Positions 10,647 to 63,223 of a DNA stretch of 64,000 bases are shown here, piece by piece; the stretch's first letter is position 1; each line of letters opens with the position of its first letter. The position numbers and the translations under genes were made by a program. The notes beneath the pieces were generated by a model. The model had not been told where the DNA came from and did not search any database. It saw nothing but the letters and a program-made list of their open reading frames with translations. This DNA is from Naegleria gruberi (taxonomy: Eukaryota), in assembly GCA_000004985.1 (NCBI GenBank), contig GG738925.1. The stretch is one strand, 5' to 3'.

Positions 10647-11752
10647 CTAAATATCACTTTCTCCAGCAACGAGTTTAGTTAATTGTTTCATTTCGAGAAT
10701 GTAATTGAGTCCTTCATCACGAAACTTATTTGCAGAAATATCAAGATTCCTTAATTGTTTCATGAGACTAATATACTTAGCTCCCTCATTACCAATAGAA
10801 TTAAAGGAAATATCAAGTTTTGTTAATTGGTTCATATCACTAACATGCTTTGCTCCTTCATCACCAATATAATTATCACAAATGTTGAGATTAGTCAATT
10901 GTTTCATTTGTTGACTAATAACTCTTGCTCCTTCATCACCAATATCATTCGTGAAACACGAAAGTTTGGTCAACTGTTTCATTCCACAAATGTATTCCAT
11001 TCCATTCACCAAAATTATTGGCACCGATATTTAGAACAGTCAATTGTTTCATTTCACTAACGAGTTTCACTCCGTCATCATCAAATATATTTGCAGAAAT
11101 ATTGAGATTGGTCAATTGTTTCATACCACTAAGATGTACCACTCCTTGATTACCAATCTTATTGATACAAACATTGAGTTTTGTTAATTGATCCAATTCA
11201 GAAATATATTTTGATCCCTTGTCACGAATATTATTTCCAGAAATATTGAGACTGGTTAATTGTTTCATTGTACTAATATATTCAGCTCCAAAATCATTAA
11301 TTCTGTTATATGCAATTTTAAGCACTCTCAGTTGTTTCATTTCACATATGGATTTAGCTCCCTGATCACATATATCATGATTACTAATATCTAGCATTGT
11401 TAATCCTTTCAAATTCTTAATGGAATAAGACAGTTTCTTATAAACTTTTTCATTATTAATGGAAGACCTTGCAACTTTTAATTTGTAAATATTTTGTAAA
11501 AATCTTCCCTCCATTTTCTTGATACAATCACTTTTACAAATTAATGAAAGTTTCATTCTTTCCAAAATAACAGTCAACCACTGTTTGGAAACGAGTGCAC
11601 AATTCAACACTAGAAAATTAAAATCATGAAAAGAAAATATTTCACACAAAATATCGGCATAGAAAAGTGGAATATCTTCCTTCAGCTTTTTTGTTTCGGG
11701 TGATGATTGATTACAGTTTGATGGATCGAATACTTCTCTTGTTCGTTTGCTC
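10647..11752 (-). CDS. F-box/leucine-rich-repeat protein (ribonuclease-inhibitor-type LRRs, MKQLTxLxIxxNxIGDEGAKxIS) with an apparent frameshift near 10990-11025
   Basis: N-terminal F-box (IPLFYADILCEIFSF...). At least 10 regular 24-25-aa LRRs continue seamlessly from the 10945..11799 frame into the 10647..11024 frame. The frame change falls in a GGAATGGAATGGA run with no splice signals. The true ATG is at 11752 (MSKRTREVF). Confidence 0.6.
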
Positions 11753-12255
11753 ATTTTTTTTTGATTGTAATTGATCAAACCTTTTTGTAATTGACTCACG
11801 AATAATCGTGTTAAATGACTGATGATAAAATTGCAAGATCTAATGTTCTGTTCTTTGAGTTAAAGCTTCCGAATAAACAGAATTAACAGAGTATGGGTTG
11901 GAGGACCTCTCTAATTATGATGATAGTATTGGGAATTGTTGTTAGGTATTTAGCTTAGTATGTTGCGGAACTTCTCTTAATTCTTTTGCGACCAAAATCA
12001 GTAATTTGTCAATTTGGATTTGATTGGAAGATGCAAACAACATTCAAGAAAATTGTGACTATTAATTCAACAATCTAATTGAATCTTAAATATTGTAAAA
12101 ACAGATTGGATTGTTGAACAAGAAAAACAACATTAAAAAAATCACACAACTACGATCAAACCCTCTATCTGAACCAAAACTCAAAATCATCGAGTGCATT
12201 GTTTATACCATATTTGGAATATTACTATTCTTGCAAGTTAAAAGTTATTGTAAAA

Positions 12256-14163
12256 ATGTTATCTCATTACTCTAAATTAAGTATCATAACCTTCGTGGTC
12301 TTTCTCCGCCTTGTTATGATCACCAATGCTTACTTGCCTTACACTGAGACTCATCCAATGAAATTTGACACACAATTCTCCATTTCCCTTACTAGCTCAA
12401 ACACTATACTAAAGCCAGGTCCAATTACTAGATATTCTGATGCATACGAAAAGGCAATTGCTTTCTTTAGAAATCAGTATGGTCTCGATATTGCTGGAAA
12501 TGGCACTCGTTTGCCATCTGGTTGTGGGCTATTTACAGGAACCAATTCTGAATATGTTGTCAATTATGCCAAAGTTCGTGGTTTTCAAATTGTGGCTGGT
12601 AGTCAGGATGTTGGAGTCCATGAGGATTCGTTCAGAATTGTGGTAAGTGGGCCGATTGTTTCGAATGGAAATTATGGAAAGAATGGCGCCTTAATTGATT
12701 CAAATTCAGTTTTACATTTTGGATTTTATACCTTCTTTTGGAGAAGTAATGGAACAGTTCTATTTCCAAGAGTAATTTACTCTGGAATGATGCCAATCAA
12801 GGTCAATTCTAATTCTTCCATGATTAATTTCCAATTGACGTCCAGTTTATTTGGTCAAGGATATGCTCGTGGTTCTATTTTACAAAGAACTAATCCACAA
12901 AATGGAAAATTGTTTACAACCATTATCAGTTCTCATTCCTACCAAATGTCAATCACTGATTTCTCTCCAAAATGTTCAGTAATTACCTCTGAAAAGGATA
13001 TCTTCAATGAGGATATTGTAATCAAGTGGAATAATGTGCTATTGAGTGTGATTCGTGATTTGAAGGTATCTGCTCCAATAGCTTCAAGACAATTGGCTAT
13101 TCTTCACTCTGCTATTGATGATTCGCTGGTTGACTGTAAGAATTTCTCTTCAAATTGCTCTCGTTCCACTTTAGTGTCCATTATTTCACATGCTGCTAGT
13201 CGAGTATTGAAAAGTTTATACCCAACTCAAATAGATTGTTTCAATGCTGCTTTGAAAAGTGCTTTAGAATGCAATGAATGCAAAGAAGTATCCATTCCTT
13301 ATTTGGAAAATATCGGAAAGCCAGGAATTTTGGCAGCTGACAGAATATTAAAAGAAAGACAAGATGATGGAAGTTTGGACTTTACAGAATATCATTTCTC
13401 TGATGGTTTTATGAATTATCAATCACATGCTCCAAACTTTGTAAGAATTCCACTACTTCCTCATTGGTCAACTGTAAAACCATTTGTCATTCAAAATGCT
13501 TCATTGTATGATCAAGGACCACCTCCACCAATTGACTCACCAATATTTGAAAAAGATTACAATGAAACTCTTCATTTTGGAAGAGAAGATTCGAGTGTGA
13601 GAACTCAAGATCAAAGAAAAATTGCGTTATTTTGGGCTGATGGAGCTGGAACGAGTACTTCACTCGGACATTGGCTCATTATTTTACAAAACATTATTCG
13701 AAATCAGAATATTAAGGATACCTTTCGAATATCTACCTTATTTAAAGTATTGACAATTACAATGGCAGATGCTGCAATTGTTTGTTGGAATCACAAGTAT
13801 AAGTACAATGCCTTTCGTCCAATCACAGTCATAACTGAAAGAGAAAGCAATGAATGGTCACCACTCTTGTCAACTCCTGCATTTCCTGAATATTCTTCAG
13901 GTCACTCAACTCTATCTGCTGCTGCTTCGACAGTATTGAGCTTATTATTTGGCTCTGACGAAATATCCTTTGAGAGCGTTTCTGAGGGTCTAATTCACAC
14001 CATTCGAAAGTTCACTAAATTATCAGAGGCAGCCAAAGAAGCTGGCAAGTCAAGAATTTATGGTGGAATTCACTTTGAATATGCCAATCAAGCAGGGTTC
14101 GGTTCTGGCATTGCCATTGCTCAAACCGTCTTTCACAAATTATGCAATTTTACCACGTGTTAA
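12256..14163 (+). CDS. secreted PAP2-superfamily / vanadium-dependent haloperoxidase-like (acid-phosphatase-like) protein
   Basis: Signal peptide MLSHYSKLSIITFVVFLRLVMITNA. C-terminal PAP2/haloperoxidase motifs KYKYNAFRP...PEYSSGHS...SRIYGGIHFEYAN (KxxxxxxRP / PSGH / SRxxxxxH). Confidence 0.7.
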   Translation: MLSHYSKLSIITFVVFLRLVMITNAYLPYTETHPMKFDTQFSISLTSSNTILKPGPITRYSDAYEKAIAFFRNQYGLDIAGNGTRLPSGCGLFTGTNSEYVVNYAKVRGFQIVAGSQDVGVHEDSFRIVVSGPIVSNGNYGKNGALIDSNSVLHFGFYTFFWRSNGTVLFPRVIYSGMMPIKVNSNSSMINFQLTSSLFGQGYARGSILQRTNPQNGKLFTTIISSHSYQMSITDFSPKCSVITSEKDIFNEDIVIKWNNVLLSVIRDLKVSAPIASRQLAILHSAIDDSLVDCKNFSSNCSRSTLVSIISHAASRVLKSLYPTQIDCFNAALKSALECNECKEVSIPYLENIGKPGILAADRILKERQDDGSLDFTEYHFSDGFMNYQSHAPNFVRIPLLPHWSTVKPFVIQNASLYDQGPPPPIDSPIFEKDYNETLHFGREDSSVRTQDQRKIALFWADGAGTSTSLGHWLIILQNIIRNQNIKDTFRISTLFKVLTITMADAAIVCWNHKYKYNAFRPITVITERESNEWSPLLSTPAFPEYSSGHSTLSAAASTVLSLLFGSDEISFESVSEGLIHTIRKFTKLSEAAKEAGKSRIYGGIHFEYANQAGFGSGIAIAQTVFHKLCNFTTC

Positions 14164-14310: not shown

Positions 14311-17300
14311 ATGTCTGCAACATCAGCTGCCTCAACATCCGACAATACAAAGAAGAGAAAAACATCATTGATGATGGAAGCCTCGGAGGCTACTGAAATT
14401 TTTGAAAATGATCAGAATGAAAAGTTGATTGATGAAATTTCTGATGCGTTGCATAGATTGTCCCTCCAGAAGCAAACTGAAGAAATGATCAAGAAATTGG
14501 TCGAGCAAAAAGATCAAACAAGTGGTGAGAGTAAGAAATCATCCACTTTTGATAAACTTGCAATTCTTCAACAAATGCAACAGGAAGAGATGGTAGTGTT
14601 AAAAGTTGGTGGTATGTTGTGTGAAATTGTATTTTTAACAATCAATTTATTATGATGATTGACAGGTAAATTCTTTTATACAACAATGAAAACTTTGATG
14701 GGTGAAAGAGGTAACTCTAAAGTTCAAACAAAGAAAATTATTATTGCTGATAAAGTTGGTAAAGCAACTGCTGGTAAGAAGAGAGGTGAAGATGAAGAAG
14801 ATGAAGAAATGGATGAAGGTGGCGATGAAGAAGGTGGTGATGAAATGGATGAAGATGGTGAAAGACCAAAAGAAGACGGTATCTCATCACTTGAATATGT
14901 TTGTGCTCAAGATAACTTGTTTAAAGTCATGTTTGATTCTGGTTTTGGTATTGAAAGAGATGAAGCAAACAAGTCTGCAATTTCATTCCCTGACAGAAAT
15001 CCAGATTATTTCGAATATATTTTAGAACACTTAAGACAAGGTGGTAAAGTTAAATCTTTGGGTATTGAAAAGTTGAATGCTGACGAATTAGAAAATATTT
15101 TAGAAGAATCAAGATATTTTGCAACTGAAAAGTTATCAGAATATATCTTATTCTTACTTGACAAGTATCACAAATATGATTCAAATTTATCTAATTATGC
15201 TGAAATTGAAGAAATTTTGAATGATTCTGTACAAAATTTGAAAAAGGTTGAAATTCCACTCGAACAAATTCAACAAAGACTCAAATCATTTGAAGATTCA
15301 ATCAACGAATCCAAGAAGAGTGTTGGTGAATATTCACGCAAATTGGTTGAACAATATCAAAACTTTATTTTAGGTACTGATTTAGAAAGTGATTTATCTG
15401 TAAAGATTGATGTTTCAGGTCAAATTTTCACAATTCCATTCACAAGTTTGAGAAAGTATGAGAATTTCCTCCTTTCAAAATACATCTTATCACCAAACTT
15501 TGGTTTAAATGAAAATGGTTGTGTATTTATTGATAGAAATCCAAAGTTATTTGCCCTTATTCATGGTTACATTATCAGTGGTGGTAAATTTAATCATTTC
15601 CCAAAGAATCTTTCACAAGAAAAGAAACTTCAATTGAAACAAGAAGCTGAATTCTATGGTTTGACAACACTTGTTCAAGAATATCTTGATCCACTTCGTT
15701 ATCCAGTTGAAAAGATTGGTAAAGATAATATTGAATTGAAAGAAAAGGAAGATAAATTGAGAGAAATCTTTGCAAAGGAAAGAGAATCACCATTATTGAA
15801 TGATCCATATCTTTTATTATCACCCCTCTTCCAAAATTTAGAAGAAATTAAGAATCAAGAAAAGTATAGAATTGATATTGGTCACTGTCCAAAATTATTA
15901 GATTTAACAGATAAGACTAGATATTCTAGACAAGTTTCTAAACCAAGACTTGTTAATAATTTGAATGGTTTCAAATTGAATTGGCATAGATTCACTCAAG
16001 GTGCTTTGGATGGTCTTGATTGGAATAATGTTTTTGCTGCAGGTGGCGGTATTCTTGGTTGTTGTTTGAAAGATGATAATTTTGATAATAATACTGCAGT
16101 CTCAACAATTTATCCAACTTCTGTTAATGAAAGAACTGAAACAAATACTTCAAGAGCAGTATCAGTCATTGATGATGAAAATGATGAAAATGAAGCTGCT
16201 GATTTTGGTTTTTGGAGAAGATTTTCAAAGAAGGCAACAACTAAATCTACAGGTGAAGAAGGAGATGAAGAAGAGGAAGAAGAAACAGAACAAAAACAAG
16301 AAGTTATTAGCAAGTATCCAATTGGTAGATTCCACAATTTAGATTCTATGGGTAATTCTACTTTATACAGTCAATATAGCAGTCATTCCTATGCAAGTCT
16401 TGATCAAAGAAAGGCCCGTTCCTCTGAACTTGCTAAAACTATTTCTGAATCCACTACCTCAAACAAGGAAAATGCTCGTTTTATCCCTGATGCCAACATT
16501 CCTGCTCCATTTAAAAAATCAGATATCGATCTTTTCTTATATGCTTTGAGTGAAGAAGAAGCTGAAGAAAAGATTAAACATATTTATCAAACTATCAAGA
16601 AGAATATGAGTAGAAGATTATTAATGAATTATGCTGGAGATAAGATGGAACATAAGGGCTACTATTCTCATTTGAAGGATGAAGAGAAAGCTAAATGTAT
16701 TTATCAAGATGGTATTATTAGAACTGAAGAAGGTACTTTGATCAATGATGACGTTTTGGTTGTTAGAACTAAATTTGCTGTCACATTCTATTGTTACAAA
16801 CTCAGACCAATTCAAGTTGTTTTGAGAATTTACAAATCACCTGCAGAAGTTTTGTTAGGTTTTGATATTGATTGTGCAACTATGGGTTTTGATGGAAATC
16901 AAGTTTGGTCAAGTGCAAGAGCAAGAAGAGCTTTAATGTATCATACTAATCTTGTTGATGTTGATAGACAATCTACAACTTATGAATATAGATTGTACAA
17001 GTATAGTAAGAGAGGTTTCTCTGTTTCAATTCCAGGTTATGATACTGCTAAAGTTCAAAATCAATTGTTACAATATCCACGTAGATTCCCATTCACTTCA
17101 ACTGAATATTTGTTGCACGGTTTAGCAAGACTTATTGCTTTTGATAATTCTTGTCGTGCTAAGAATCCAAAACATATTTTAGGTGTTTATGATGATCGTG
17201 ATCCAAATGCAGCTCAATTAAGAGAAGAAAATAAGGCTCTCATCCTTTCTGGTGAATTGAATGTAAAGTCAGACTATCTTGATTTGAATATTATCAAATC

Positions 17301-18225
17301 ATATAAGTATCCTCCAAGCTTTATCTTTACTACTTTAGAAAAGACTCGTCAGATTGTATCACTTATTAATTTGAAACCTGAAGAACAAAGAGACATTAAG
17401 AATTGGCGTGATAGAGAAAAGATTAGAAGAACTTTCAGAAAAGGAGAAAGTGTTAAATTTGATAGTAGATTGAAAAATAATACTAATATCAAAATGGAAA
17501 GAGATCCAGATTGGAAACCTCACTTTATTTATTCTTTGAATGATATTGATACTGTTCTCAATAGTGAAAAGTTTGATGCAAGAATCTCCAACAAGATTCA
17601 ATTCCTTACCGTTGATCCAGGAACTCAGAAAATTGGTTCCTTCCATCCAAAGGATATTAACTTTTATAGAGATGCCTATCAACCAGTTCCATTCTCTAAA
17701 TTACCAATTTTGAAGGAAGCCAAGATGAGAACTGTTTGGTTCAAGGCAATGACTGAACTCCCTCCTCAACATGTTATCGACGAAAGAGAAAAACATGTTA
17801 AGGAAAATACAAACCAATACGGTTTTTATAATGATAATAAGGATTACACCAAGGATCCATTCGAAGAAAGATATCAAAAATTCTCAATGTCCAGACCAAA
17901 TCCAAATTCACAAAACATCTATGACAAGTGGGTTCAAGAAGAAATTTGGTTTGAAGCATTCACACCAGAAGAAAGCAACAAGATTGAACAAGAGTTTAGA
18001 AAGTTTATTGTTTATGGAAATCCTGAAAGCTTTGCAATTTCAGGATCTGAACTTATTGACTTCTCCTATTGGAGACTCTTCCTTGATAGTAACCATCCAA
18101 CTCATCCAAACACTGCTGCTGCCTTGCATAGAAAGAATTTCTGTGAATCTGGTCATTACTTTGGAGGAATTGATGAAGATCAAGTTGGTACTGTTACAAC
18201 CCTCTCTTACAGATCTTTCTATTAA
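14311..18225 (+). CDS. large protein with two BTB/T1 (KCTD-like) domains and a C-terminal region carrying a nucleotidyltransferase-like D-x-D signature. Exons: join(14311..14611,14666..18225), proposed.
   Basis: Two T1/BTB-like segments (ISSLEYVCAQDNLFKVMFDSGF...NPDYFEYILEHLRQG; SVKIDVSGQIFTIPFTSLRKYENFLLS...NPKLFALIHGYIISG). Acidic tracts. Downstream ...AAGGGILGCC... and ...KKSDIDLFLY... The upstream ORF 14311..14655 joins in frame through a 54-nt GTATGT...GACAG intron; that join is an inference. Confidence 0.55.
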
Positions 18226-19252: not shown

Positions 19253-21355
19253 ATGAAAGAAATACCTATTTCAAACGACAGGATGTCACTTCAAAAAAAA
19301 ATGGTCAACAAGGTTTGCCTATTAATTCTGCTTGCTGTGTCTCTGTTGCTCTTTGCTTCAGTCACTTGTGAGAATATTGTCTATTCTACTACAACCTACA
19401 TGGATGGAACGCTCGTTCCTTCATTCGAAACTAATGTTGAAACTAACCTATTCAACTCTACCAATCCAAACTCCAGATCCCTCCAAGAAGATTGTACATT
19501 GTGTCCAGTTGGTGGTGATTGCACATGTGCAGGTACTTGTCCAGTTTCTTCATATGATTACAAGGACTTTTTCATCAAGACAACTTGTCCAAATGGTTTC
19601 TACTTGACTTCCTTGAGTCTTCAATGTAGAACAAGTGTTATTGGTGATTCAAAAGTTTTTATTCTTTCTCCAAGTGAATTTGATATTTACAAGGCAGATG
19701 ATACGAAACTTCCAGCTATTCGATTCAACACTAATAATTGTATTGATTATCGTTTTAACATTACAGAAGATCAAACTCTTGTTTACTATTGGTTAGATTT
19801 AAGACCTGCTGTGTATACAGCAAAGTGGTGGTTTAAATTTGTTGGAACTTGCAACAAAATTCAAGCTGGTCAACCTGTCAGAATGGATGTTCAGCCGTCA
19901 GTTGTTACCTTAACAAACACAACATTTTTTGACATTTCAACAACTCTATACGATAGAAACAATATCATCGCTGGTAATGCAGAAGGAGAAATGCGTCTTG
20001 TTGTTGATCCAGCTCAAAATCAAGGTTTCCAATTAACAAGTAGCTCACCAGTTTTGTGGGGAAACTCAACTTTTAAATTAATGAAATTCAAAACAGCTCT
20101 TCCACAAGTTGTGTACCAAGTGTTCTATACGAATGGTAACTATTCCATTAACGAAACAAGAACCATGAATATGACAGGAGATCAAGTTACATTCATTTGT
20201 AACATTCCAAAATATATGATTATTAATCAAGTAGTGAATGTTGATTTCGCTCTTGTGGATAGTCAAAATCAAGTAGTCCAATCTGTGAGTTCTAATTTTG
20301 CTAAACTTGGTTCTCCACAACTTGGTTCAGATTGCATGTATTATTTAACAACTGAAGGTATCTTTCGATATGTTTCACCAGCAGAAAGAGATATTCCATT
20401 AACAAGAGGAAGAGGCTCAATGACTTTGAGAGCTCCAATGACTGTAAGAAGTAATAGTTTTTACATTGATCTCTATTACATGCTACGTACGAAAACTTAT
20501 TTCACATTCGAAACAACTGGACCTCCATATGATGCACAAATCACTATTATTGATGGAGAGTTTGGAAGTGGAACAGATACTGCATTCTCAGTTTCAATTT
20601 ATGATGGAAAAATGGAATATAGTCCCTCACTTGTTAAGGCATGTTCAGATGTTGTGAAAATTGTTTCAGATCCTCCATTAGAAGGGTTTCCAGTGGAAAG
20701 TAAGGCAGTGGAGGGAGTTGCTTTGTTTAATACCATGTTAATTAGTGATCCTAGAAATATCAAGTTGCAAATACTTGTCAATAATCAAGCATTGACAAGT
20801 AAGAATGTTAGAGTTGGAGATAATGTCAAGTTAGCTCTTTCAGTTGACAAGTATTTGATATCACCAGGTGATTCATTCTATGGAAATATCTCAATTTATG
20901 ACATGTTTGATAACTTTTTAAACATGTCTACTGGAAATGCATTCCTTAACATTACCTATAATGGAAATCAATTCATGAAAATTAATTCCAAAGTTGTTAA
21001 TGGATTTTGCATGTTTTCACCAAGTTCAATTCCAAAAATTTACACTTCTCGAGTTTACATTCAAGCTGGATTCTACAGTCAATTCAACCAATTATTCCTA
21101 TCAGAAACATTTGAAATGCAAGTTTACAATTTGTCACCTTACCCTACTCCAAAACCAACCATTAGTCCAATGATGAGTAAAAAGGCAGAACACTCAAGTG
21201 GTGGTAATAATCCAACAAATCCATCTAAACCTTTGAATTCTGTTCAAATTCCAGCCATCAAATCCAATAATCAAAGAATTAACAATGCCAATTCTGTTAA
21301 CATTGGTTCTGTAATTCTTCTTGTGTTCTTCCTCTTTTTGATAAGCATGCATTAA
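19253..21355 (+). CDS. secreted or surface Cys-rich glycoprotein (hypothetical) with a C-terminal hydrophobic tail
   Basis: Signal peptide MVNKVCLLILLAVSLLLFASVTC, an N-terminal Cys cluster, many N-x-S/T sites and a terminal hydrophobic stretch IGSVILLVFFLFLISMH (GPI-like or TM). Confidence 0.55.
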   Translation: MKEIPISNDRMSLQKKMVNKVCLLILLAVSLLLFASVTCENIVYSTTTYMDGTLVPSFETNVETNLFNSTNPNSRSLQEDCTLCPVGGDCTCAGTCPVSSYDYKDFFIKTTCPNGFYLTSLSLQCRTSVIGDSKVFILSPSEFDIYKADDTKLPAIRFNTNNCIDYRFNITEDQTLVYYWLDLRPAVYTAKWWFKFVGTCNKIQAGQPVRMDVQPSVVTLTNTTFFDISTTLYDRNNIIAGNAEGEMRLVVDPAQNQGFQLTSSSPVLWGNSTFKLMKFKTALPQVVYQVFYTNGNYSINETRTMNMTGDQVTFICNIPKYMIINQVVNVDFALVDSQNQVVQSVSSNFAKLGSPQLGSDCMYYLTTEGIFRYVSPAERDIPLTRGRGSMTLRAPMTVRSNSFYIDLYYMLRTKTYFTFETTGPPYDAQITIIDGEFGSGTDTAFSVSIYDGKMEYSPSLVKACSDVVKIVSDPPLEGFPVESKAVEGVALFNTMLISDPRNIKLQILVNNQALTSKNVRVGDNVKLALSVDKYLISPGDSFYGNISIYDMFDNFLNMSTGNAFLNITYNGNQFMKINSKVVNGFCMFSPSSIPKIYTSRVYIQAGFYSQFNQLFLSETFEMQVYNLSPYPTPKPTISPMMSKKAEHSSGGNNPTNPSKPLNSVQIPAIKSNNQRINNANSVNIGSVILLVFFLFLISMH

Positions 21356-22976: not shown

Positions 22977-24935
22977 ATGCCGTGTGATACCAATAATGAC
23001 GCCTCTGACACCGTTGCCTCCGCACCAGCATCATTCATGTACGAAGAAATAACATGTAATGAGCTTCTACTGCTTCATTCATATAATTCACAAATTAAAA
23101 AGTGGATAAAAACTGACGCTCATGAAAATACTCATGAATTTTATATGGAACGGGAAGATTCCGATGATGATGATGATGATGAAGATGATGAAGATTATGT
23201 AGAGGATAATCAAGTTGATGATGAAGAAAAGGTTGATAATGAAAAGAATTTATTCGAAAGAAGAATGATATTTAATTCTGTGAGGGGTAGAACTACAGAA
23301 CTTGGATATTTGGATCCGTGTGATGATTATCACATCAGAGAATATAATGATGATTGGGGACGTGTGGAGGAAGTTGAGGAAATTAATATTGGACTATTTT
23401 ATAATCACCTTTCGAATGAAAATTTTGTAGAGGAGAGGGAAAAGTTTACCTATGAATGGAAAGATAACATTCTCTGTTTTAGAATAATGCCATATGATTT
23501 TGACTCTTTGGGAAAATATGACATGATGAAAGTTATTGGTGAGATTGAGAATGAAAATTATGCGAAACAATTTGTTGAGGAACAGATTGAATATACGAAA
23601 TCACCAGAAACAAAGGTCAATTATATGGAATTTGTGAATAATCATGCCATTGTTTCAGTATTTGATTATCTTGATACATGTTTCTTGTTGAAAACATGCT
23701 CAAAAGTTTCTTCGGAATGGCACAAAATGTTGTTTTACAATTCACATATTCAAAATCATATTTTCAAAGGTAGATTACTGGATTTATTCGATGGACAATT
23801 TGACCATTTGAGTCGCTTGAATGAGTTTTATAATTTGAATTGGTTGGAAACTTATCTGATGAGTGGTGCGTTCGTTTTTGAAATGTTTCAAGAGGGATTG
23901 TTAGGTCAATTGGAACACTTTGCTCATTTAAATGCAGTTGAAGTAGAGCAATTCTTTTACATTGTTCTCAAATTAGATCCTCTTCCTCATCTGGTTGATG
24001 ATTTGAAGGATGATCATCCACTGATTAATAGATTGAAACTCTTACCCCCAAAGAGAGTACTGTTCAGTGTTAATACTCTACCAGAGGTAAAGAGAATGGT
24101 ATTCAAAAGAGGATTTTTAACACATCTTTTGAGTGTGGAAGATAATTGTGATCCTGAAGTAGTGATGGAAAAAATTCTTATGGCCAAATGTGTAATTCCA
24201 ATTCAAGATTGCGAATTTTCAGTAGATTTCAAGAAGGGAATTTCTTTATATGACGAATTTTTGAAAGAACTTTCTTCAAAATTATTATCATTTAGAATAC
24301 CATCAAAAAAGACAGATTCAGAATTGGATTGGGCTGCCAATTGTCTCTGTGAAATGAGAGAAAAGGCTAGCTATTTCATTCACAATATTATTCCCGCCCA
24401 TCCATTTACCAAGCTTTGTGTGGATGATGATATTCTCATTGGACTCCATCTACTCTTACTCGATAACATTTATTCTAAAATTGACTTTCTAACAAACATT
24501 CCAATCCTCAACTTTTTGGAATTATTGGAAAATAGAAAGAGGAATGAATTGACCAATATCAAATCCCTCCTTCCTGAAAAATTCCAATCCAACCTATTTG
24601 AAATGATGTTACAAGAACCATCACCATATCAATTTACATCTGATTCTCTCACTCCATTTAATCAACCATCAAATTTATTAGAATTTTTAACAGAACATGT
24701 TATTGAACCGAGTGAAATTTATCAAGAAAATAGAAAATTCTCTGAATGGATTGATAGGGATATTGAGGAATATTTGAAATTCATTAAAACATTCCACACC
24801 AAGTCAATTACACCACCTAAACATGTTGACATGTTATTTCACTTTCACATGTTACATCCAAACAATTACATGCCAGATTGTTTGAGAATTGCAAGATCAA
24901 TCAAGAATCACAAATTTAACTTTATTAAAAATTAA
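22977..24935 (+). CDS. hypothetical protein with an acidic tract and an F-box-like segment
   Basis: 652-aa ORF, aaaaaaaaATG start, D/E run, F-box-like VSVFDYLDTCFLLKTCSKVSSEWHKMLF. Confidence 0.5.
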   Translation: MPCDTNNDASDTVASAPASFMYEEITCNELLLLHSYNSQIKKWIKTDAHENTHEFYMEREDSDDDDDDEDDEDYVEDNQVDDEEKVDNEKNLFERRMIFNSVRGRTTELGYLDPCDDYHIREYNDDWGRVEEVEEINIGLFYNHLSNENFVEEREKFTYEWKDNILCFRIMPYDFDSLGKYDMMKVIGEIENENYAKQFVEEQIEYTKSPETKVNYMEFVNNHAIVSVFDYLDTCFLLKTCSKVSSEWHKMLFYNSHIQNHIFKGRLLDLFDGQFDHLSRLNEFYNLNWLETYLMSGAFVFEMFQEGLLGQLEHFAHLNAVEVEQFFYIVLKLDPLPHLVDDLKDDHPLINRLKLLPPKRVLFSVNTLPEVKRMVFKRGFLTHLLSVEDNCDPEVVMEKILMAKCVIPIQDCEFSVDFKKGISLYDEFLKELSSKLLSFRIPSKKTDSELDWAANCLCEMREKASYFIHNIIPAHPFTKLCVDDDILIGLHLLLLDNIYSKIDFLTNIPILNFLELLENRKRNELTNIKSLLPEKFQSNLFEMMLQEPSPYQFTSDSLTPFNQPSNLLEFLTEHVIEPSEIYQENRKFSEWIDRDIEEYLKFIKTFHTKSITPPKHVDMLFHFHMLHPNNYMPDCLRIARSIKNHKFNFIKN

Positions 24936-34492: not shown

Positions 34493-37400
34493 CTACTCGT
34501 TTAGTATTCTGTAGGAGAGCTTTGGGAAGAGAACAGTTTCCAAAAACCATGAGCTCAAAACAATTTCAATGAAAAGAATGGAGAAGAGAGAGAATGAAAG
34601 TAGAATGAGGGTTCCACACAGCAACGTTCCTACCATACCAAAGATGTCTGAACCTCTGATAACTACCGATTTGAATTCACTCCTAGGGCACAAAATAACA
34701 GCATTATTAATACCTTTGGAAGGTTTGTCAAGGATTGGAATAACAAAGAAAGGTTTTGGAGCAGGAGTGATACGTTTGTTAGATTGTTGCACTTGTGAAA
34801 TGTCATAATAATTTGAGGAAATGAAACATTTTGTTGAGGCGGATCCTAAGGCATAAAGACCATACTTATCAAATTCAGCTGAATATTCTGATGTTTGAGG
34901 ATAATAATTGTTTTGATTGAATTGATAGATAACATCACCTGCCTGTGAGCAACAAACCAAGTGATCACTATAACTCAATGCCAACACAAGGAAAGTTACA
35001 ACCGATACAACAGCAATAAAGAGTAAAATTAGAGCTGGTATAAGAATTTGAAGTTGTCTTGCTCTTCTACTCTTGGTTCTGGATCCAAACAAGCTGAACC
35101 AAAATGTAAGTCCAAAACAAAATGGATCATTGTCTCGAAGTGTTTCAAATGTTGTGAGTTTCCTCTTCTTAATCTTTTCATAAAACTTGCAAGAAAATCC
35201 AATCATTAGAATGATGGCAACAAAACAAACCAAAGCAGTTATTGAAATAAGAGCATAGGTAGTAAATGGAAGGAATGTAAGCTCATTTGAAATTTTACCA
35301 TCAGCCACAATAAAAGATATAATTTCGTGATGATAACTCTCATCTTGATTCCACACAGCCAAATACAAAGAGCTATTGACTGACTTTTGGTTTGCTGCCA
35401 ATCCTGAAATATTGTTATAAGAAGAATAGTTATGAATAGAATTCAATGGGAATGTTAAGGAGTATTTGATCATAAAGAGTGAGGCAGACTCTGTGGCTGA
35501 TTTAGAGTATTTGTATACTTCCTTTTCTAATTTTGAATCTTTTGGTAGTATTTCATCAACATTCTCCACAGATAATTTTTCGAAAGCACATGTCAAAGAG
35601 AGATGGTCAAAGTTTGTTAAATTAGTTATATCCCAAAAGGTAAGTTCAATACGGAAGTTAGTTGTGGCCAAGTAATCATTTGGATTCAAAGTTGTTTCCT
35701 TAATTAAGCCTTCATTTTCTGCGGCTTTTTCACTAAAGTTCTTATAAAAAGCTCTCAAAATTTCATCAAGGTCAAAAGAGAAAAAGAATGGAATTCCTCT
35801 CTTTCTCTTTTTGGTTGAGCTTAAGGACTTGGAGATTTGTAATATTGAATCAGTAGTACCATTAACTCCTGTAGAATTATCGTTACCAACTAGCAAAACC
35901 GGATTTAATCCATCATAACGTTTGGTTAGACTAACTACTGATGGGAAGGAGTTATATGAAACAACTGTGAGATCAATGTATGTTGAATTACATGTATTCC
36001 TGGTATTATTCCCTTCATAAATCGACTGATAAATAATTCTATCCAATGAACTAGTATAATAGTTATATTGAGGTACAGTGATAAGTAGATTGGAAAATGC
36101 ATCGGCAACCAAATTACCTTCCTCAATGAAATTAATAGCTGTTTCATTGTATCCTACTATATTTGGAATAACATAAGGTTCCCTTCTATAAATTATGTGA
36201 GTTCCTCCATTATTCGTGCTGGCTACATAATTCAATGTAAGAAGCATGTCTGTATAGAATGTTGAATTGGGAAAATTGAAGGAATTGTCAAAGGATGTAT
36301 CGTAGTCATCAGTATAGGGAGCTTCTCCAACTTTTGAATAAAATAATAATGGATTATCTGAGGTGTTTCTAATCAAAACTACAGAAGTATGGATGACATG
36401 ATATGGAAGAATATAATCTGAGCTTGATATTTTGGCTCCTGTGCTCAATAAATCAAAATCAGAAGAGTACATCTTTGAATTCAAGGTGTCAGTGTAGATT
36501 TGAGGGGTATCTATCCAGAAATCAACTTTGACACTTGATGTATATTCTACATCATCTTTTTCAACTTTGTAAATAAATCCAAAATACCACTCATACTCAT
36601 ATATTGTGTTGACAAGCTCAATATGGCCACTAATCTCATAACAGTCTCCTGTTTGCTTGAAATCATAGAGCTGGGTACTTGGAAATAAGCTCTTTCTAAT
36701 ATATACTTCCATGGAAGTAATTGGGACATGGTCGAGTAATTTAAAGGAGTATCTTAAAAGATTGCCCAAAAATTTTGTACTATTGGAAGCTCTTTCAATT
36801 TTGAGTTTTGTTGAATAATGAATAGTGTTTGGCTCCTTCTTAACATATGTGACTGAATACTGTGTATTTCCATAACTTAAGAGAATTCTTTCATCATCAG
36901 TCAAATAGGATCTGACCTTGTAGTAACACTTAAATGGACAAGCCTTTCCGTAGACAGCTATGTAGTAAGCTTGTTTTGTGTTCGACACATCCTTGTACAA
37001 CCAAGCATTCTTCTTTTCTGTATCCAATTTAAAGGATGTAGGAAGTGTAAAATAGGATGAAGATGGTAATTTTGTCATTTGCCAATCATAAGGATAATTT
37101 GGTGTTTGAGAAGAGCTACTTTGGGCAGATGAAATCAAAATGTTGACAGAGTTTGCGTAAATGTCTGTAGTTTCAAATAAAACATTCAGAATGGCACTAT
37201 CAGAATATGAAGTAACGTAATAATAACGCCATTGATAGAGCTGCAAATCTGAATCCACAATTTGGTCACTGTTAATGGCAGTGTTAATCATATTGGTAAT
37301 CTTTGAATATACTGTGTAGGATATACTATCACTTGTCTGGGAAAAGGAGGTAAACACAATTGAGAATGTGTTAGATATACTCGATTCAAATTTAGAGGAG

Positions 37401-47800: not shown

Positions 47801-48085
47801 AAGTTAGTGAAACCAGAAACCATCAATATCCCACTTTTACCAATTCCAAAGAGAGATTTAAAGAGCTATACATTGGCTGCTTCATATAATCATTTGGAAT
47901 TCACAGAGAAGGATATTCAACTCAATCTCTCTACCAAATCTAATGGAACTCATTCTTCAAAAACATCCCTGAATGACAGTACAGTCTTTGGCAGTTTTGT
48001 TGGTAGTTTACAAAATCTAATTTCCAATCAAGAAGAAGTGGAGAAGGAAACACCTTCCAGAACATTTGCATTCAACTGGTTCTAA
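44832..48085 (+). CDS. conserved oligomeric Golgi complex subunit 1 (COG1). Exons: join(44832..44992,45077..45153,45201..45376,45427..45618,45662..48085).
   Basis: Spliced N-terminus ...LRNLVGERYRDIIEAADCMDSIQQLC... matches the COG1 signature (ELRQMVGERYRDLIEAAD). Four 5' introns of 84, 47, 50 and 43 nt (GTATGT/GTTTGT/GTAAGT...AG) link the small ORF-track pieces to the 798-aa ORF. Confidence 0.75.
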
Positions 48086-55708: not shown

Positions 55709-56160
55709 ATGGAAGAACTTCACAAGCAAGCTATTGCTCAACTCTCTCTTCTCAAAATGGATGCAGATGATACCTATACTACAAAGGCTATTAGTGATGT
55801 AGCATGTCTTCAGGGAGTTGATTTGTCCAATGATGAAACATTGTTAGCCTTGATGCCAACTTTAATTAAAGAAATTGGTGGTGAATATTCGGAAATTAAT
55901 TGGGTAAAGAATGATCCAATTAGATTTAAAGATGAATTACAAAAGATTTATGGAACCACTGATTTGACTAAAATTGTTAAGGAATTTAGTTTTTCTGATG
56001 GTATGTAGTGAAAATTGTAAAAAAACATCTCAATATTAATGTATGATCAATAACAATAGGAATTAGAACATGGGGAGGTGGTTATTCTAGAGGATCATAT
56101 GTATTTATATTTGGAAAGGAATTAGTATTTGTTCATTCTACAATGTCATACACTGATTAA
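55709..56160 (+). CDS. small protein (~130 aa), two exons join(55709..56000,56060..56160)
   Basis: The 99-aa ORF ends in GTATGT. A 59-nt intron ending CAATAG joins an in-frame 33-codon exon (GIRTWGGGYSRGSYVFIFGKELVFVHSTMSYTD). Identity not recognised. Confidence 0.45.
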
Positions 56161-56290
56161 TACTCATCACAGTTAATCGATATTTGTTTTTTCTTAGAAG
56201 AAGGACTTTATAGCCTTGATTGGTCAATAGATTACAAAATCATGTATAATACTTAATGTTCAATAATAAAAACAGCAACAATAGAAAAAA

Positions 56291-57242: not shown

Positions 57243-57307
57243 ATAATTGTAAATATTTTAAAAGTAGAGCAATTTCAATTGTAAAGAAAATTCAACAAAA
57301 AATTGAA

Positions 57308-58255: not shown

Positions 58256-58306
58256 ATAAATAATTAATTTAATTTGAATTTATAATAATTTAATTTTTTA
58301 TTATTT

Positions 58307-61005: not shown

Positions 61006-61278
61006 TCAATATTCTATTGTTGTAATTGTTATTATTATTATGAAGATGAAGCTATTTTTTTTCTTCTTTCTGTTGTCTAATGATGCATTGTCCTTCTTCT
61101 ACTTTCGGGCTAATTAGAGTATCTCAAGTCGTACATTTAGGTATGTACCAAACAAGCCTTCAAAAAAATATCTGTACACTTATTAATAGATATTTTGGAG
61201 GGAAAACAAATGCTTTTGTTTCAAAGGCTGAAGAATGTTCACAAAACAAAGCCTTTTGTTGAATTCAAGTTTTAAAAA

Positions 61279-62238
61279 ATGTTTCTACCAAAACATCCAT
61301 CAAAGCCTTCAGTTACTTCCTCTTCTTCACTTGGAGTTGATCAACGACAAGGCTCTGTATCATCATCATCTTCAACAATTGTCTCACACCCTAAAAGGAG
61401 AATTACACCAACTCTTGTAGATCCCTCAACAGCTACAACAACTACCACATCGGGATTGACCACTCAACAACCAATAACATCATCGGAAGGATATTCTCAT
61501 AGTAATAGTAGTGGTAGTAGTAGTTTATTTAAAAATCTAAATGATGATGAAGAATCAATTAATAGTTCATCTGATGATGATGATTATGATGATTATAATG
61601 ATGAAGATGGACAATTAACAGATGGAGGAGAATATGAAGAATATGAAGAGGATAATGATGAAGAAATGATTCATAATATTAATGAATCCATTCAATTACA
61701 ACAACCTCCTTCATCAAAAAGAGTTAAAAGATCAACATCAACATCTTTATCATCTGGTCAAAAAAAACCAATCATAACCAGAATTATTGAAGAATATTCT
61801 GAAAATGAAATTCAACAAGATACTAACTTTTTAACAAATTATGATATATCAGCAATATTTTCATCATTATCATCTACTAAAAGAACCATATCATCTATTA
61901 ATTCTTCATCTATTAATAATTCTAATAATTCTAATAATTCTAATACATATTCATTCTATTATTTAAAAGATGATATAGTATTATATGAAATGAAAAATAG
62001 ATTACATTTTGGTAAATTAAATGAAACTGAAAAGTTTGAAAAGAAATTAACTAATGATATTATTAATAAATTAAATAATAGTATAGATTTAAATTTATAT
62101 CCACAAATAAGTAGAGGTGATATTAAAATTACACAAATTAAATTAAAAACAACGATTGAAATTATAACACCCATTGAAATTAATTGTTATTATTCATATA
62201 ATAATATTGAATATATTATTATTACAAAACGATTCTAA
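61279..62238 (+). CDS. S/N/D-rich hypothetical protein; 3' end runs into the assembly gap
   Basis: ORF with aaaaaATG start, poly-S, poly-D/E-Y and N-rich tracts. The ORF 62174..63223 spanning the N-run suggests the gene continues across the gap; the track reading frame across Ns is arbitrary. Confidence 0.4.
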   Translation: MFLPKHPSKPSVTSSSSLGVDQRQGSVSSSSSTIVSHPKRRITPTLVDPSTATTTTTSGLTTQQPITSSEGYSHSNSSGSSSLFKNLNDDEESINSSSDDDDYDDYNDEDGQLTDGGEYEEYEEDNDEEMIHNINESIQLQQPPSSKRVKRSTSTSLSSGQKKPIITRIIEEYSENEIQQDTNFLTNYDISAIFSSLSSTKRTISSINSSSINNSNNSNNSNTYSFYYLKDDIVLYEMKNRLHFGKLNETEKFEKKLTNDIINKLNNSIDLNLYPQISRGDIKITQIKLKTTIEIITPIEINCYYSYNNIEYIIITKRF

Positions 62239-62243
62239 TATAT

Positions 62244-62801
62244 NNNNNNNNNNNNNNNNNNNNNNNNNNNNNNNNNNNNNNNNNNNNNNNNNNNNNNNNN
62301 NNNNNNNNNNNNNNNNNNNNNNNNNNNNNNNNNNNNNNNNNNNNNNNNNNNNNNNNNNNNNNNNNNNNNNNNNNNNNNNNNNNNNNNNNNNNNNNNNNNN
62401 NNNNNNNNNNNNNNNNNNNNNNNNNNNNNNNNNNNNNNNNNNNNNNNNNNNNNNNNNNNNNNNNNNNNNNNNNNNNNNNNNNNNNNNNNNNNNNNNNNNN
62501 NNNNNNNNNNNNNNNNNNNNNNNNNNNNNNNNNNNNNNNNNNNNNNNNNNNNNNNNNNNNNNNNNNNNNNNNNNNNNNNNNNNNNNNNNNNNNNNNNNNN
62601 NNNNNNNNNNNNNNNNNNNNNNNNNNNNNNNNNNNNNNNNNNNNNNNNNNNNNNNNNNNNNNNNNNNNNNNNNNNNNNNNNNNNNNNNNNNNNNNNNNNN
62701 NNNNNNNNNNNNNNNNNNNNNNNNNNNNNNNNNNNNNNNNNNNNNNNNNNNNNNNNNNNNNNNNNNNNNNNNNNNNNNNNNNNNNNNNNNNNNNNNNNNN
62801 N
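62244..62801. other. assembly gap (558 N)
   Basis: Run of n characters. Confidence 1.
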
Positions 62802-63223
62802 TATTAACTTGTAAATATATTTATGTACATAATAATACATTTATTAAATATAGAAATAAATATTATGATATTATAAATGATAGAGATTTATTCATGGAAG
62901 ATGATGAAGATGATTCTGAATATTTTATTAAAATGGCAATTAGACAATTTTCAAATTATTATTTAATATGTACATTAACAAATAAGGGAATTGTTGATAT
63001 TTATAAATTTGATGATTCAATTAAACAAGAAAATGAAAAAATTTCATTAGAATTTAGATTTTCATTAAAAAAATTGAATTTTATAACTCAATATAAAAAT
63101 AATGAAAATAATTTTGAATGTGAATATTTAAATTTTATAAATTCACAAATAATAATTATTTGTTTAAAAAATGGTGATTTAATTAGATTTGAACCTATTT
63201 TATATTTTAATTATAATATTTAA
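62802..63223 (+). CDS. 3' coding fragment downstream of the gap (…KYIYVHNNTFIKYRNKYYDII…FEPILYFNYNI*), possibly the end of the 61279 gene
   Basis: Open frame from the gap edge to a TAA at 63221..63223. The frame relation across the gap is unknown. Confidence 0.3.

What the first reader, a model, noticed from the sequence alone, without database searches (positions are those of the whole stretch)
12256..14163. Secreted PAP2 / vanadium-haloperoxidase-like protein
The C-terminal third carries the three PAP2/vanadate-binding motif blocks (KYKYNAFRPITVI; PEYSSGHSTLSAAAS; SRIYGGIHFEYANQAG) behind a ~450-aa N-terminal region and a signal peptide. The long N-terminal extension resembles vanadium chloroperoxidases more than simple lipid phosphatases, which raises the possibility of a secreted halogenating or phosphatase enzyme.
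Basis: partly seen in the sequence, partly recalled or inferred. Interest (0 to 1): 0.5.

Follow-up and report, generated by a model that had tools for sequence, protein, structure and literature searches.

The report
Amoeba secreted vanadium haloperoxidase-like enzyme
This is an intact Naegleria gruberi gene for a probably secreted enzyme: a bacterial-type vanadium haloperoxidase core with every catalytic residue in place, fused to a previously undescribed beta-rich domain. It is a credible but untested halogenating enzyme in a lineage where none has been described.

Summary
Window 12256-14163 (+) is an intronless 635-aa ORF, 100% identical to the Naegleria gruberi protein NAEGRDRAFT_75530 / XP_002669540.1, which is named only "predicted protein". 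It sits among eukaryote-type genes.

Residues 253-635 are a two-helical-bundle vanadium haloperoxidase (VHPO) core:
- Family profile against solved structures: Zobellia iodoperoxidase E=1.6e-70, Curvularia chloroperoxidase E=5e-39, acid phosphatases only E~6e-3.
- The model has pLDDT above 90 for most of the core, and its best fold match is 4usz/4cit (TM 0.76).
- All ten Curvularia active-site positions are identical here and in all seven Naegleria-clade homologues.

The nearest relatives of the core are bacterial (about 40% identity), and the Naegleria clade is monophyletic, which suggests an old bacterial acquisition.

The most likely function is a secreted vanadate-dependent haloperoxidase. 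Acid phosphatase activity is the main rival. Nothing has been tested biochemically. This is a new variant of a known kind, of moderate interest.

The parts
12256..14163 (+). Complete intronless CDS (635 aa plus stop) of Naegleria gruberi NAEGRDRAFT_75530 / XP_002669540.1 / UniRef D2W2B5
   Evidence: ORF list and translation. It is 100% identical over 100% of its length to P0001; accessions come.
12256..12330 (+). Predicted signal peptide, residues 1-25 (MLSHYSKLSIITFVVFLRLVMITNA|Y)
   Evidence: This stretch has the highest hydropathy in the protein. Paralogues carry an equivalent hydrophobic leader that ends just before the conserved YSPTTET. This is inferred; no SignalP-type tool was run.
12331..12951 (+). 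Orphan N-terminal domain, residues 26-232: one helix (AYEKAIAFFRNQYG) plus about 10 beta strands, modelled as an up-and-down barrel
12952..13011 (+). Linker, residues 233-252, containing the invariant Cys240
   Evidence: pLDDT is low in both models. C240 is invariant in the Naegleria clade.
13012..13455 (+). VHPO N-terminal helical bundle, residues 253-400
   Evidence: Bacterial homologues begin aligning here. The A1 profile matches CiVCPO residues 17-420. There is a sub-threshold Pfam VCPO_N hit. The AF2 model is helical here, with block-mean pLDDT 74-98 (most blocks above 90) as far as residue 390 and 58 for residues 391-400.
13456..14160 (+). VHPO C-terminal (catalytic, PAP2) helical bundle, residues 401-635
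   Evidence: Pfam PAP2 covers residues 499-627. 4cit aligns over residues 399-629 at E=8.9e-36. Foldseek gives TMt 0.76 to 4usz.
13639..13641 (+). Asp462, equivalent to CiVCPO Asp292
   Evidence: Mapping from the HMMER alignment. Identical in 7 of 7 Naegleria proteins and in 35 of 38 bacterial-like homologues.
13786..13821 (+). Motif 1, WNHKYKYNAFRP: Trp511, Lys514 and Arg521, equivalent to CiVCPO W350/K353/R360 and Zg-VIPO1 W321/K324/R331
13882..13905 (+). Motif 2, FPEYSSGH: Phe543, Ser548, Gly549 and His550, equivalent to CiVCPO F397/S402/G403/H404
14053..14073 (+). Motif 3, RIYGGIH: Arg600 and His606, equivalent to CiVCPO R490 and the vanadate-ligating H496

Best explanation
The locus is a functional nuclear gene of the amoeboflagellate Naegleria gruberi. 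It encodes a signal-peptide-bearing protein of two modules.

The C-terminal 380 aa are a bacterial-type vanadium-dependent haloperoxidase core made of two helical bundles. They are most like the Zobellia iodoperoxidase and Curvularia chloroperoxidase group.

Inferred mechanism, from established VHPO chemistry. Vanadate binds covalently to His606 and is held by Lys514, Arg521, Ser548, Gly549 and Arg600. H2O2 forms a peroxovanadate, assisted by His550 and Lys514. A halide in the Trp511/Phe543 pocket is then oxidised to hypohalous acid. This happens outside the cell or inside a secretory or phagosomal lumen.

The N-terminal 207-aa orphan beta-rich domain is as conserved among paralogues as the core. 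It is probably an accessory binding module, possibly a small-molecule-binding barrel of the allene-oxide-cyclase/dirigent type.

The core was most likely acquired from bacteria before N. gruberi and N. lovaniensis diverged. It then fused to the beta-rich domain and duplicated to at least four copies in N. gruberi.

Shown here: gene identity, fold, residue conservation, distribution. Inferred: secretion, vanadate use, halide oxidation, the role of the N-domain, and the gene transfer.
For: Identity and context. The ORF is 100% identical to N. gruberi XP_002669540.1. Its neighbours are LRR, BTB, Kelch and RCC1 genes. Gene GC3 is 27%, like the neighbours at 21-29%.

VHPO core.
- Family profile against PDB: 4cit E=1.6e-70, CiVCPO E=5e-39, NapH1/NapH3 and other bacterial VHPOs E=1e-15 to 1e-25, acid phosphatases only E=6e-3.
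- The AF2 model has pLDDT above 90 over most of residues 250-635.
- Foldseek top hits are 4usz/4cit (E=2e-17, TMt 0.76), then NapH1 and CiVCPO. Single-bundle acid phosphatases reach only E~1e-3.

Active site. D462, W511, K514, R521, F543, S548, G549, H550, R600 and H606 match CiVCPO D292, W350, K353, R360, F397, S402, G403, H404, R490 and H496. They are invariant in all 7 Naegleria-clade proteins.

Activity of relatives. Zg-VIPO1 is an iodoperoxidase. The planctomycete RhobaVHPO, from the VIPO-related region of sequence space, chlorinates and brominates (PMC13519999).

Secretion.
- There is a hydrophobic leader with an A|Y site, conserved in position across paralogues.
- Six Cys are invariant within the clade, including a C-terminal CxxxxC.
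- There are 8 N-x-S/T sequons.
- The bacterial homologues also carry signal peptides and extracellular modules such as PPC, CARDB, FG-GAP and dockerin.

N-domain under constraint. Mean pairwise identity among paralogues is 66%, against 66-73% for the core.

Origin. The Naegleria clade is monophyletic in 200 of 200 NJ bootstraps and sits among bacterial sequences. The closest outside homologue, P0006 (43% identity), lies on a plainly bacterial contig.
Against: There is no biochemical evidence of any kind. The same residues catalyse phosphate-ester hydrolysis in PAP2 phosphatases, and apo-CiVCPO itself has phosphatase activity (PMC4859513; PDB 3bb0). Residue conservation therefore cannot separate the two activities.

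The closest homologues, the bacterial proteins of about 415 aa, are themselves uncharacterised. Identity to the nearest characterised enzyme is only 31% over the core.

No halogenated metabolite or haloperoxidase activity is reported for Naegleria in the searchable literature.

The signal peptide was judged by eye and hydropathy only.

The sister group of the Naegleria clade is unresolved. It was Zg-VIPO1 in 68 of 200 replicates and various bacterial groups otherwise, in a simple NJ tree of a limited sample. The donor and even the direction of transfer are therefore inferred from distribution alone.
Confidence: 0.6

Rival explanations
1. It is a secreted or lysosomal acid phosphatase. In this reading the VHPO-fold core uses His606 as a phospho-accepting nucleophile and His550 as general acid, as PAP2 phosphatases do, to scavenge phosphate from organic esters. 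It does not use vanadate in vivo.
For: Pfam PAP2 is the only above-threshold family. The active-site residues are shared with class A acid phosphatases, and CiVCPO apo-enzyme dephosphorylates (PDB 3bb0; PMC4859513). JGI annotates several homologues as 'membrane-associated phospholipid phosphatase'. Phosphate scavenging is a plausible need for a soil or freshwater bacterivore.
Against: Profile and fold matches to real acid phosphatases are 30-65 orders of magnitude weaker than to VHPOs. The protein has the two-bundle VHPO architecture, not the single bundle of acid phosphatases (PMC4859513). Trp511, Phe543 and Asp462 are retained, and in CiVCPO these line the halide/peroxide side of the site. 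The Asp four residues after the nucleophilic His is the His-Asp charge relay of PAP2 phosphatases (my own knowledge of the E. blattae enzyme). It is Ala or Gly in all Naegleria copies. This last point is weak, because CiVCPO has the Asp and Zg-VIPO1 does not.
Confidence: 0.25
2. It is a non-halogenating VHPO-fold protein. Examples would be an isomerase or rearrangement enzyme like NapH3/MarH2, or a vanadate- or phosphate-binding protein without redox chemistry.
For: Such non-halogenase homologues exist inside the VHPO family (8cxl; PMC13519999). The unusual N-terminal barrel-like domain could hint at a dedicated small-molecule substrate.
Against: Every vanadate-site and acid-base residue is retained and is invariant across seven paralogues and orthologues. 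The protein is much closer to Zg-VIPO1 (E=1.6e-70) than to NapH3 (E=2.7e-18).
Confidence: 0.08
3. It is not a Naegleria gene at all: either bacterial contamination of the assembly, or a decaying pseudogene.
For: The closest outside homologues are bacterial.
Against: The gene lies inside a 182-kb scaffold between LRR, BTB, Kelch and RCC1 genes. Its GC and GC3 match the neighbours. The reading frame is intact. At least three further paralogues sit on other N. gruberi scaffolds and one orthologue in N. lovaniensis, all with the same eukaryote-specific N-domain.
Confidence: 0.02

Closest known systems
Zobellia galactanivorans vanadium iodoperoxidase Zg-VIPO1 (PDB 4cit/4usz)
   Same: It is the best sequence match (phmmer E=8.9e-36, profile E=1.6e-70) and the best fold match (TMt 0.76). 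It has the same monomer-type two-bundle core of about 400 aa. W, K, R, F, S-G-H, R and H are identical, and both have Ala rather than Asp four residues after the vanadate His.
   Different: Identity is only 31% over the core. Zg-VIPO1 has no N-terminal beta domain. Tyr263 of Zg-VIPO1 (numbering from my own knowledge of Fournier et al. 2014, which fits chain index minus 8) aligns with Gly in the query. The FWADGAG loop follows the CiVCPO-like pattern, with Asp462. It is bacterial rather than eukaryotic. Halide scope cannot be transferred.
Curvularia inaequalis vanadium chloroperoxidase (PDB 1vnc/1idq)
   Same: All ten active-site positions are identical (D292, W350, K353, R360, F397, S402, G403, H404, R490, H496). 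It has the same two-bundle fold, and it is a secreted eukaryotic enzyme.
   Different: Identity is 23%. CiVCPO has long insertions (609 aa) and no beta-rich N-domain. It carries Asp at His+4 where the Naegleria proteins have Ala.
Uncharacterised bacterial VHPO-like proteins of about 415-535 aa (for example Thermoanaerobaculia P0010, Verrucomicrobia P0017, Gemmataceae P0036, Ca. Accumulibacter L004), and the assayed planctomycete RhobaVHPO
   Same: These are the closest homologues of the core: 35-41% by BLASTP, 37-43% in my alignment of the core, aligning end to end with residues 253-635. They are secreted and are often fused to extracellular accessory modules. RhobaVHPO shows that members of the VIPO-related region of sequence space can chlorinate and brominate.
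   Different: None carries the Naegleria N-domain; their accessory modules are PPC, CARDB, FG-GAP/VCBS, Big or dockerin. I did not align RhobaVHPO itself with the query.
Class A non-specific acid phosphatases and lipid phosphate phosphatases (PAP2 proper)
   Same: They share the KxxxxxxRP / SGH / SRxxxxxH motifs and the C-terminal helical bundle.
   Different: They are single-bundle proteins of about 220 aa or six-helix membrane proteins. Their matches are weak (E~6e-3 by profile, about 1e-3 by Foldseek). The query has no transmembrane segments beyond the leader and lacks the His+4 Asp.
Allene-oxide-cyclase-like / dirigent beta-barrels (Cyc15, Tsn15, PyrI4, AbnU, PloI4, AtDIR6, PsPTS2, AOC)
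   Different: Identity is 5-12%. There is no sequence-level signal, and Foldseek is not significant (best relevant hit PloI4, E=0.07). Only one of five models reached pLDDT 71, from a nine-sequence alignment. The query also has an extra N-terminal helix. This is a fold-level lead only.

Membership tests
Vanadium-dependent haloperoxidase, VCPO/VIPO-type (two-bundle) | Significant sequence similarity to experimentally characterised VHPOs across the whole core | tested here: met
   The A1 profile matches 4cit at E=1.6e-70 (profile positions 47-416) and CiVCPO at E=5e-39. The single sequence matches 4cit at E=8.9e-36.
Vanadium-dependent haloperoxidase, VCPO/VIPO-type (two-bundle) | Two consecutive helical bundles (N-terminal bundle plus catalytic C-terminal bundle) | tested here: met
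   The AF2 model is all-helical over residues 253-629, with pLDDT above 90 in most blocks. Foldseek aligns 408 columns to 4usz at TMt 0.76, then to NapH1 and CiVCPO.
Vanadium-dependent haloperoxidase, VCPO/VIPO-type (two-bundle) | Vanadate-ligating His plus the Lys, Arg, Ser-Gly-His, Arg anion cage | tested here: met
   H606, K514, R521, S548-G549-H550 and R600 align with CiVCPO H496, K353, R360, S402-G403-H404 and R490. They are invariant in 7 of 7 Naegleria proteins.
Vanadium-dependent haloperoxidase, VCPO/VIPO-type (two-bundle) | Halide/peroxide-side residues Trp350, Phe397 and Asp292 (CiVCPO numbering) | tested here: met
   W511, F543 and D462 are all identical and invariant in the Naegleria clade.
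Vanadium-dependent haloperoxidase, VCPO/VIPO-type (two-bundle) | Binds vanadate and oxidises halide with H2O2 | not testable with these tools
   This needs a recombinant enzyme assay (thymol blue or monochlorodimedone).
Pfam PAP2 superfamily (PF01569) | Score above the curated gathering threshold | tested here: met
   33.6 bits against a cut-off of 27.2, residues 499-627.
Class A acid phosphatase / lipid phosphate phosphatase | Single-bundle soluble protein of about 220 aa, or a six-transmembrane-helix architecture | tested here: not met
   The fold has two bundles. The only window with mean hydropathy above 1.7 over 19 residues is the N-terminal leader; the next is a buried core helix at residue 492. 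Acid phosphatase matches reach only E=6e-3 by profile and about 1e-3 by Foldseek.
Class A acid phosphatase / lipid phosphate phosphatase | Asp four residues after the nucleophilic His (SRxxxxxHxxxD) | tested here: not met
   The position is Ala610 in the query, and Ala or Gly in all seven Naegleria proteins. It is not fully diagnostic, because CiVCPO has Asp here.
NapH1-type regio/stereoselective chloroperoxidases | Ser in place of the acid-base His of the S-G-H motif (S427 signature cited in PMC13519999) | tested here: not met
   The query reads SSGH (H550), whereas NapH1, 9l8x and 9ptr read PSGS or PSAS at the aligned position. The mapping of S427 onto that column rests on a four-residue chain offset that I inferred.
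AOC-like / dirigent beta-barrel (N-terminal domain only) | Eight-stranded antiparallel barrel superposable on known members, with sequence or profile support | tested here: inconclusive

The most novel reading that the evidence does not exclude
The N-terminal orphan domain may be a dirigent/AOC-like small-molecule-binding barrel, physically coupled to an oxidant-generating haloperoxidase. Naegleria would then make a 'guided' halogenase or halocyclase: the barrel captures and orients a hydrophobic or aromatic substrate, and the VHPO core supplies the electrophilic halogen. That architecture has no described precedent. It would imply undiscovered halogenated metabolites, or halogen-mediated prey killing or cyst-wall cross-linking, in heterolobosean amoebae.
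Probability: 0.12. Interest if true: 0.75.

Novelty: new variant of a known kind. Interest (0 to 1): 0.42.

Why it matters
Characterised VHPOs come from algae, fungi and bacteria. I found no paper in the searchable library that links Naegleria or other Heterolobosea to a haloperoxidase.

If active, this small gene family would give a free-living bacterivorous amoeba a haem-independent way to turn H2O2 into hypohalous acid. That chemistry could serve prey killing, defence against competitors, quenching of bacterial signals, or wall cross-linking.

At least four copies were found in N. gruberi and one in N. lovaniensis. None was returned for the pathogen N. fowleri.

The fused domain is conserved but otherwise nearly unique. 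It is a clean target for structural and functional work, because it might be a selectivity module for an enzyme class usually regarded as unselective.

The locus is also a tidy example of a probable bacterial gene that was fully adapted in base composition, fitted with a eukaryotic signal peptide and extra cysteines, fused to a new domain and then duplicated.

Tried and rejected
Searches and checks that led nowhere:
- NCBIfam scan of the protein: no hit.
- tRNA scan and Rfam scan of the window: nothing.
- Pfam at E<=10 on seven N-domain sequences: only scattered single-member noise.
- PDB profile search with the N-domain: only a designed TPR protein. It matches the AYEKA..F..YG helix, like the spurious TPR/NB-ARC hit P0045.
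- Foldseek of the N-domain model against PDB: nothing significant.
- The afdb50 fold library was not available.
- Locus scans for the N-domain found no confirmed relative. I scanned viral contigs once and metagenome contigs twice, first with the Naegleria-led alignment and then with the stand-alone family.
- I spent the single genome-contig scan on one sequence rather than an alignment. It returned one locus only, Ca. Accumulibacter contiguus at 37% identity.
- The Fournier et al. 2014 paper (PMC4249250) is not held. Zg-VIPO1 residue numbers therefore rest on my memory, cross-checked against the PDB chain index minus 8.

Ideas considered and rejected:
- I first considered a giant virus or an amoeba symbiont as the source of the window, because of low GC, long ORFs and LRR/BTB genes. 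The 100% match to N. gruberi ruled this out.
- I first planned to use absence of the His+4 Asp as a VHPO-versus-phosphatase discriminator. I downgraded it after seeing that CiVCPO and 10 of 38 bacterial homologues carry the Asp.
- The very low GC at 62-63 kb is largely an assembly gap of N characters, not biology.
Full report
**Observation.** The window contains one long ORF on the + strand at 12199..14163. Its first ATG is at 12256, which gives a 635-aa product ending in ...KLCNFTTC*. No competing ORF of 80 aa or more lies on the other strand within the interval. The translated product is 100% identical over its full length to a protein held by NCBI as 'predicted protein [Naegleria gruberi]'. 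Its identifiers are EFC36796.1, XP_002669540.1, NAEGRDRAFT_75530 and UniRef D2W2B5, and it sits on a 182,562-bp scaffold. The window is therefore nuclear DNA of the heterolobosean amoeboflagellate N. gruberi. This fits its roughly 32% GC, the absence of tRNA and Rfam hits, and neighbours that carry LRR, BTB, Kelch, RCC1, protein-kinase and DUF4116 domains. The gene's GC (36.6%) and GC3 (27%) are like those of five neighbouring genes, whose GC3 is 21-29%. It is not a contaminant.

**The catalytic core.** Pfam PAP2 is the only family above its curated threshold (33.6 bits against 27.2, residues 499-627). VCPO_2nd and VCPO_N hits are sub-threshold.
- By sequence, the best solved relative is the vanadium iodoperoxidase of Zobellia galactanivorans (4cit, E=8.9e-36, query residues 399-629).
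- A profile built from the query and 41 homologues (A1) matches 4cit at E=1.6e-70 over essentially the whole core. It matches Curvularia inaequalis chloroperoxidase at E=5e-39 (chain residues 17-420 plus 472-503) and other bacterial VHPOs at E=1e-15 to 1e-25. Algal bromoperoxidases score about E=1e-4 to 1e-5, and bacterial acid phosphatases only E=6e-3.
- An AlphaFold2 model from A1 is confidently helical from residue 253 to 629, with pLDDT above 90 in most blocks.
- Foldseek against PDB ranks 4usz/4cit first (E=2e-17, TM 0.76 normalised to the target). NapH1, CiVCPO, XhnO11 and NapH3 follow. Single-bundle acid phosphatases appear only at about E=1e-3.

The core is thus a two-bundle VHPO of the VCPO/VIPO type. 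It is not a lipid phosphate phosphatase: there is no hydrophobic segment beyond the leader and one buried helix.

**Active site.** I used the residue numbering printed in the HMMER alignments, which reproduces the literature numbers for CiVCPO. The query's D462, W511, K514, R521, F543, S548, G549, H550, R600 and H606 correspond to CiVCPO D292, W350, K353, R360, F397, S402, G403, H404, R490 and H496. All ten are identical in the query and in all seven Naegleria-clade sequences. They are nearly invariant in 38 bacterial-like homologues.

The same residues correspond to Zg-VIPO1 W321, K324, R331, F353, S358, G359, H360, R410 and H416. That numbering is from my own knowledge of Fournier et al. 2014, and it agrees with the chain index minus 8. 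The paper itself is not held.

The query keeps the acid-base His of the S-G-H motif. NapH1-type selective enzymes have Ser at the aligned position (signature cited in PMC13519999).

The Asp four residues after the vanadate His is part of the classical PAP2 phosphatase motif. It is Ala in the query and Ala or Gly in all Naegleria copies. This position is also Ala in Zg-VIPO1 but Asp in CiVCPO, so it is only a weak discriminator.

**The N-terminal region is two things.** Bacterial homologues start aligning at about residue 253, directly after their own signal peptides. Residues 253-400 are therefore simply the VHPO N-terminal bundle. Residues 26-232 are something else.
- They have no Pfam, NCBIfam or PDB sequence match.
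- An exhaustive phmmer search of 1.84 billion representative proteins found only two real relatives, P0043 (E=1.8e-18) and P0044 (E=6.9e-5). It also found a spurious TPR hit.
- A profile search of 5.8 billion clusters added only P0053 and P0054.
- All four are small (214-307 aa) proteins with signal-peptide-like N-termini. They sit on contigs of about 1 kb. The three contigs that were looked up (L001-L003, for P0043 and P0054) each carry a single gene, and the one read in full (L001) looks like a transcript. Their organisms are unknown, and none has a VHPO core.
- Within the Naegleria clade this domain is as conserved as the enzyme core: 66% mean pairwise identity against 66-73%. It is therefore under comparable constraint.
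- The full-length model failed on this domain (pLDDT 22-54 by 10-residue block). A domain-only model from nine sequences reached pLDDT 71 and pTM 0.71, with one helix followed by about ten strands. Only the best of the five models was that good.
- Foldseek finds nothing significant; the best relevant hit is PloI4 at E=0.07.

I treat the barrel assignment as a lead, not a result. No paper in the library mentions dirigent proteins together with vanadium haloperoxidases.

**Secretion.** The first 25 residues form the most hydrophobic stretch of the protein and end in TNA|Y. Paralogue P0055 has MSIPLTRLLLVFTLIFSPFLLINA|YSPTTET, and the N. lovaniensis orthologue has ...LLVHA|QQDF. In both, the leader comes immediately before the conserved mature N-terminus. 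Six cysteines are invariant in the clade: C240, C294, C301, C328, C630 and C635. There are eight N-x-S/T sequons. The bacterial homologues carry signal peptides and extracellular modules such as PPC, CARDB, FG-GAP/VCBS, Big and dockerin. Entry into the secretory pathway is therefore well supported by inference, but the final location is unknown.

**Family and origin.** The full two-module architecture was found only in the following proteins:
- four N. gruberi proteins: this one, XP_002679676.1, XP_002670991.1 and XP_002674918.1;
- one N. lovaniensis protein, XP_044555661.1;
- two unnamed environmental or run-assembly sequences, P0002 and P0003.

No N. fowleri protein was returned. That is suggestive but not proof of absence. 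All next-best hits cover only the C-terminal 59% of the query at 35-41% identity. Where they are named, they are bacterial: Thermoanaerobaculia, Verrucomicrobia, Gemmataceae and Ca. Accumulibacter. The closest, P0006 (43% over the core), lies on a contig with SpoIIE, ThiS/ThiF, Prok-JAB and MoaE genes.

I built a neighbour-joining tree from 415 trimmed columns, rooted on CiVCPO. The Naegleria clade was monophyletic in 200 of 200 bootstraps and sat within the bacterial radiation that also contains Zg-VIPO1. Its sister group is unresolved. The simplest history is one old acquisition of a bacterial VHPO gene before the N. gruberi / N. lovaniensis split. That was followed by fusion to the beta-rich domain, adaptation of base composition, and duplication. 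The query is the most divergent N. gruberi copy.

**Mechanism.** The best-supported reading is a secreted vanadate-dependent haloperoxidase (confidence about 0.6). Vanadate bound to His606 reacts with H2O2 to form peroxovanadate. A halide is then oxidised to hypohalous acid, which halogenates or oxidises nearby molecules. This step is inferred from the chemistry established for CiVCPO and its relatives.

Halide scope cannot be predicted. Zg-VIPO1 is iodide-specific, whereas the planctomycete RhobaVHPO, from the VIPO-related region of sequence space, chlorinates and prefers bromide (PMC13519999).

The main rival is acid phosphatase activity (about 0.25). The residues are shared and apo-CiVCPO dephosphorylates (PMC4859513; PDB 3bb0). 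A non-halogenating NapH3-like role (about 0.08) and contamination or pseudogene (about 0.02) are unlikely.

**Novelty and verdict.** One correction applies: the extension that looks 'VCPO-like' is only half of the N-terminal region. The catalytic part is a new member of a known family. One paralogue is already auto-annotated as 'PAP2_haloperoxidase domain-containing protein', while this copy is just 'predicted protein'.

What is new is the lineage and the fusion to a conserved, almost unique beta-rich domain. I found no published VHPO from Heterolobosea. I rate it a new variant of a known kind, interest about 0.4. The most novel reading the evidence does not exclude is a dirigent-like barrel guiding a haloperoxidase (probability about 0.12), which would deserve about 0.75.

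Noticed in passing
window 62244-62801, with flanks 56000-64000: A run of N characters (an assembly gap) spans 62244-62801. It explains the apparent 7-8% GC there and makes the ORFs listed across it (62174..63223 +, 62235..62840 -) artefacts. Separately, the real sequence from about 56 kb to the window end averages about 25% GC (500-bp windows 21-34%), against about 32% elsewhere. It encodes Asn/Ile/Lys-rich ORFs, one with an alpha/beta-hydrolase domain (58307-59896, -). The cause of this compositional shift is unexplained.
   Followed up: partly
window 10647-11799 (-): Two overlapping ORFs (10647..11024 and 10945..11799) both encode leucine-rich repeats, with a 72-bp tandem repeat at 10736-10949. 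This is probably one LRR gene split by a frame change or a small intron. It lies immediately upstream of the VHPO gene on the opposite strand.
   Followed up: partly
window 14311-18225 (+): A 1188-aa ORF carries two BTB_2 (potassium-channel-tetramerisation-type) domains and long acidic tracts. Directly ahead of it is a 114-aa ATG-initiated ORF (14311..14655) in another frame, possibly a first exon of the same gene.
   Followed up: no
proteins P0044, P0053, P0054 (loci L002/L003 for P0054): The stand-alone homologues of the N-terminal domain carry a methionine-rich tail (for example MEMDAEMMMMGHGMNDMGDLPMN) and a conserved C-terminal ...TQCKNL. Met-rich tracts of this kind are reminiscent of Cu(I)-binding segments. 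The source organisms are unknown.
   Followed up: no
bacterial homologues P0007, P0022, P0033, P0035-P0040: The bacterial VHPO-like core is repeatedly fused to different extracellular modules: PPC pre-peptidase, CARDB, FG-GAP/VCBS, Big_13, a haemolysin-type Ca-binding repeat, and dockerin. Accessory-domain shuffling therefore looks like a general habit of this uncharacterised clade.
   Followed up: no
window 34493-38956 (-), 19253-21355 (+), 22977-24935 (+), 45689-48085 (+): Several long ORFs (1487, 700, 652 and 798 aa) have no Pfam match at E<=0.001.
   Followed up: no
Naegleria genus: Four paralogues were found in N. gruberi and one orthologue in N. lovaniensis. No N. fowleri protein was returned by either search, which may mean the family was lost in the pathogenic species.
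   Followed up: partly
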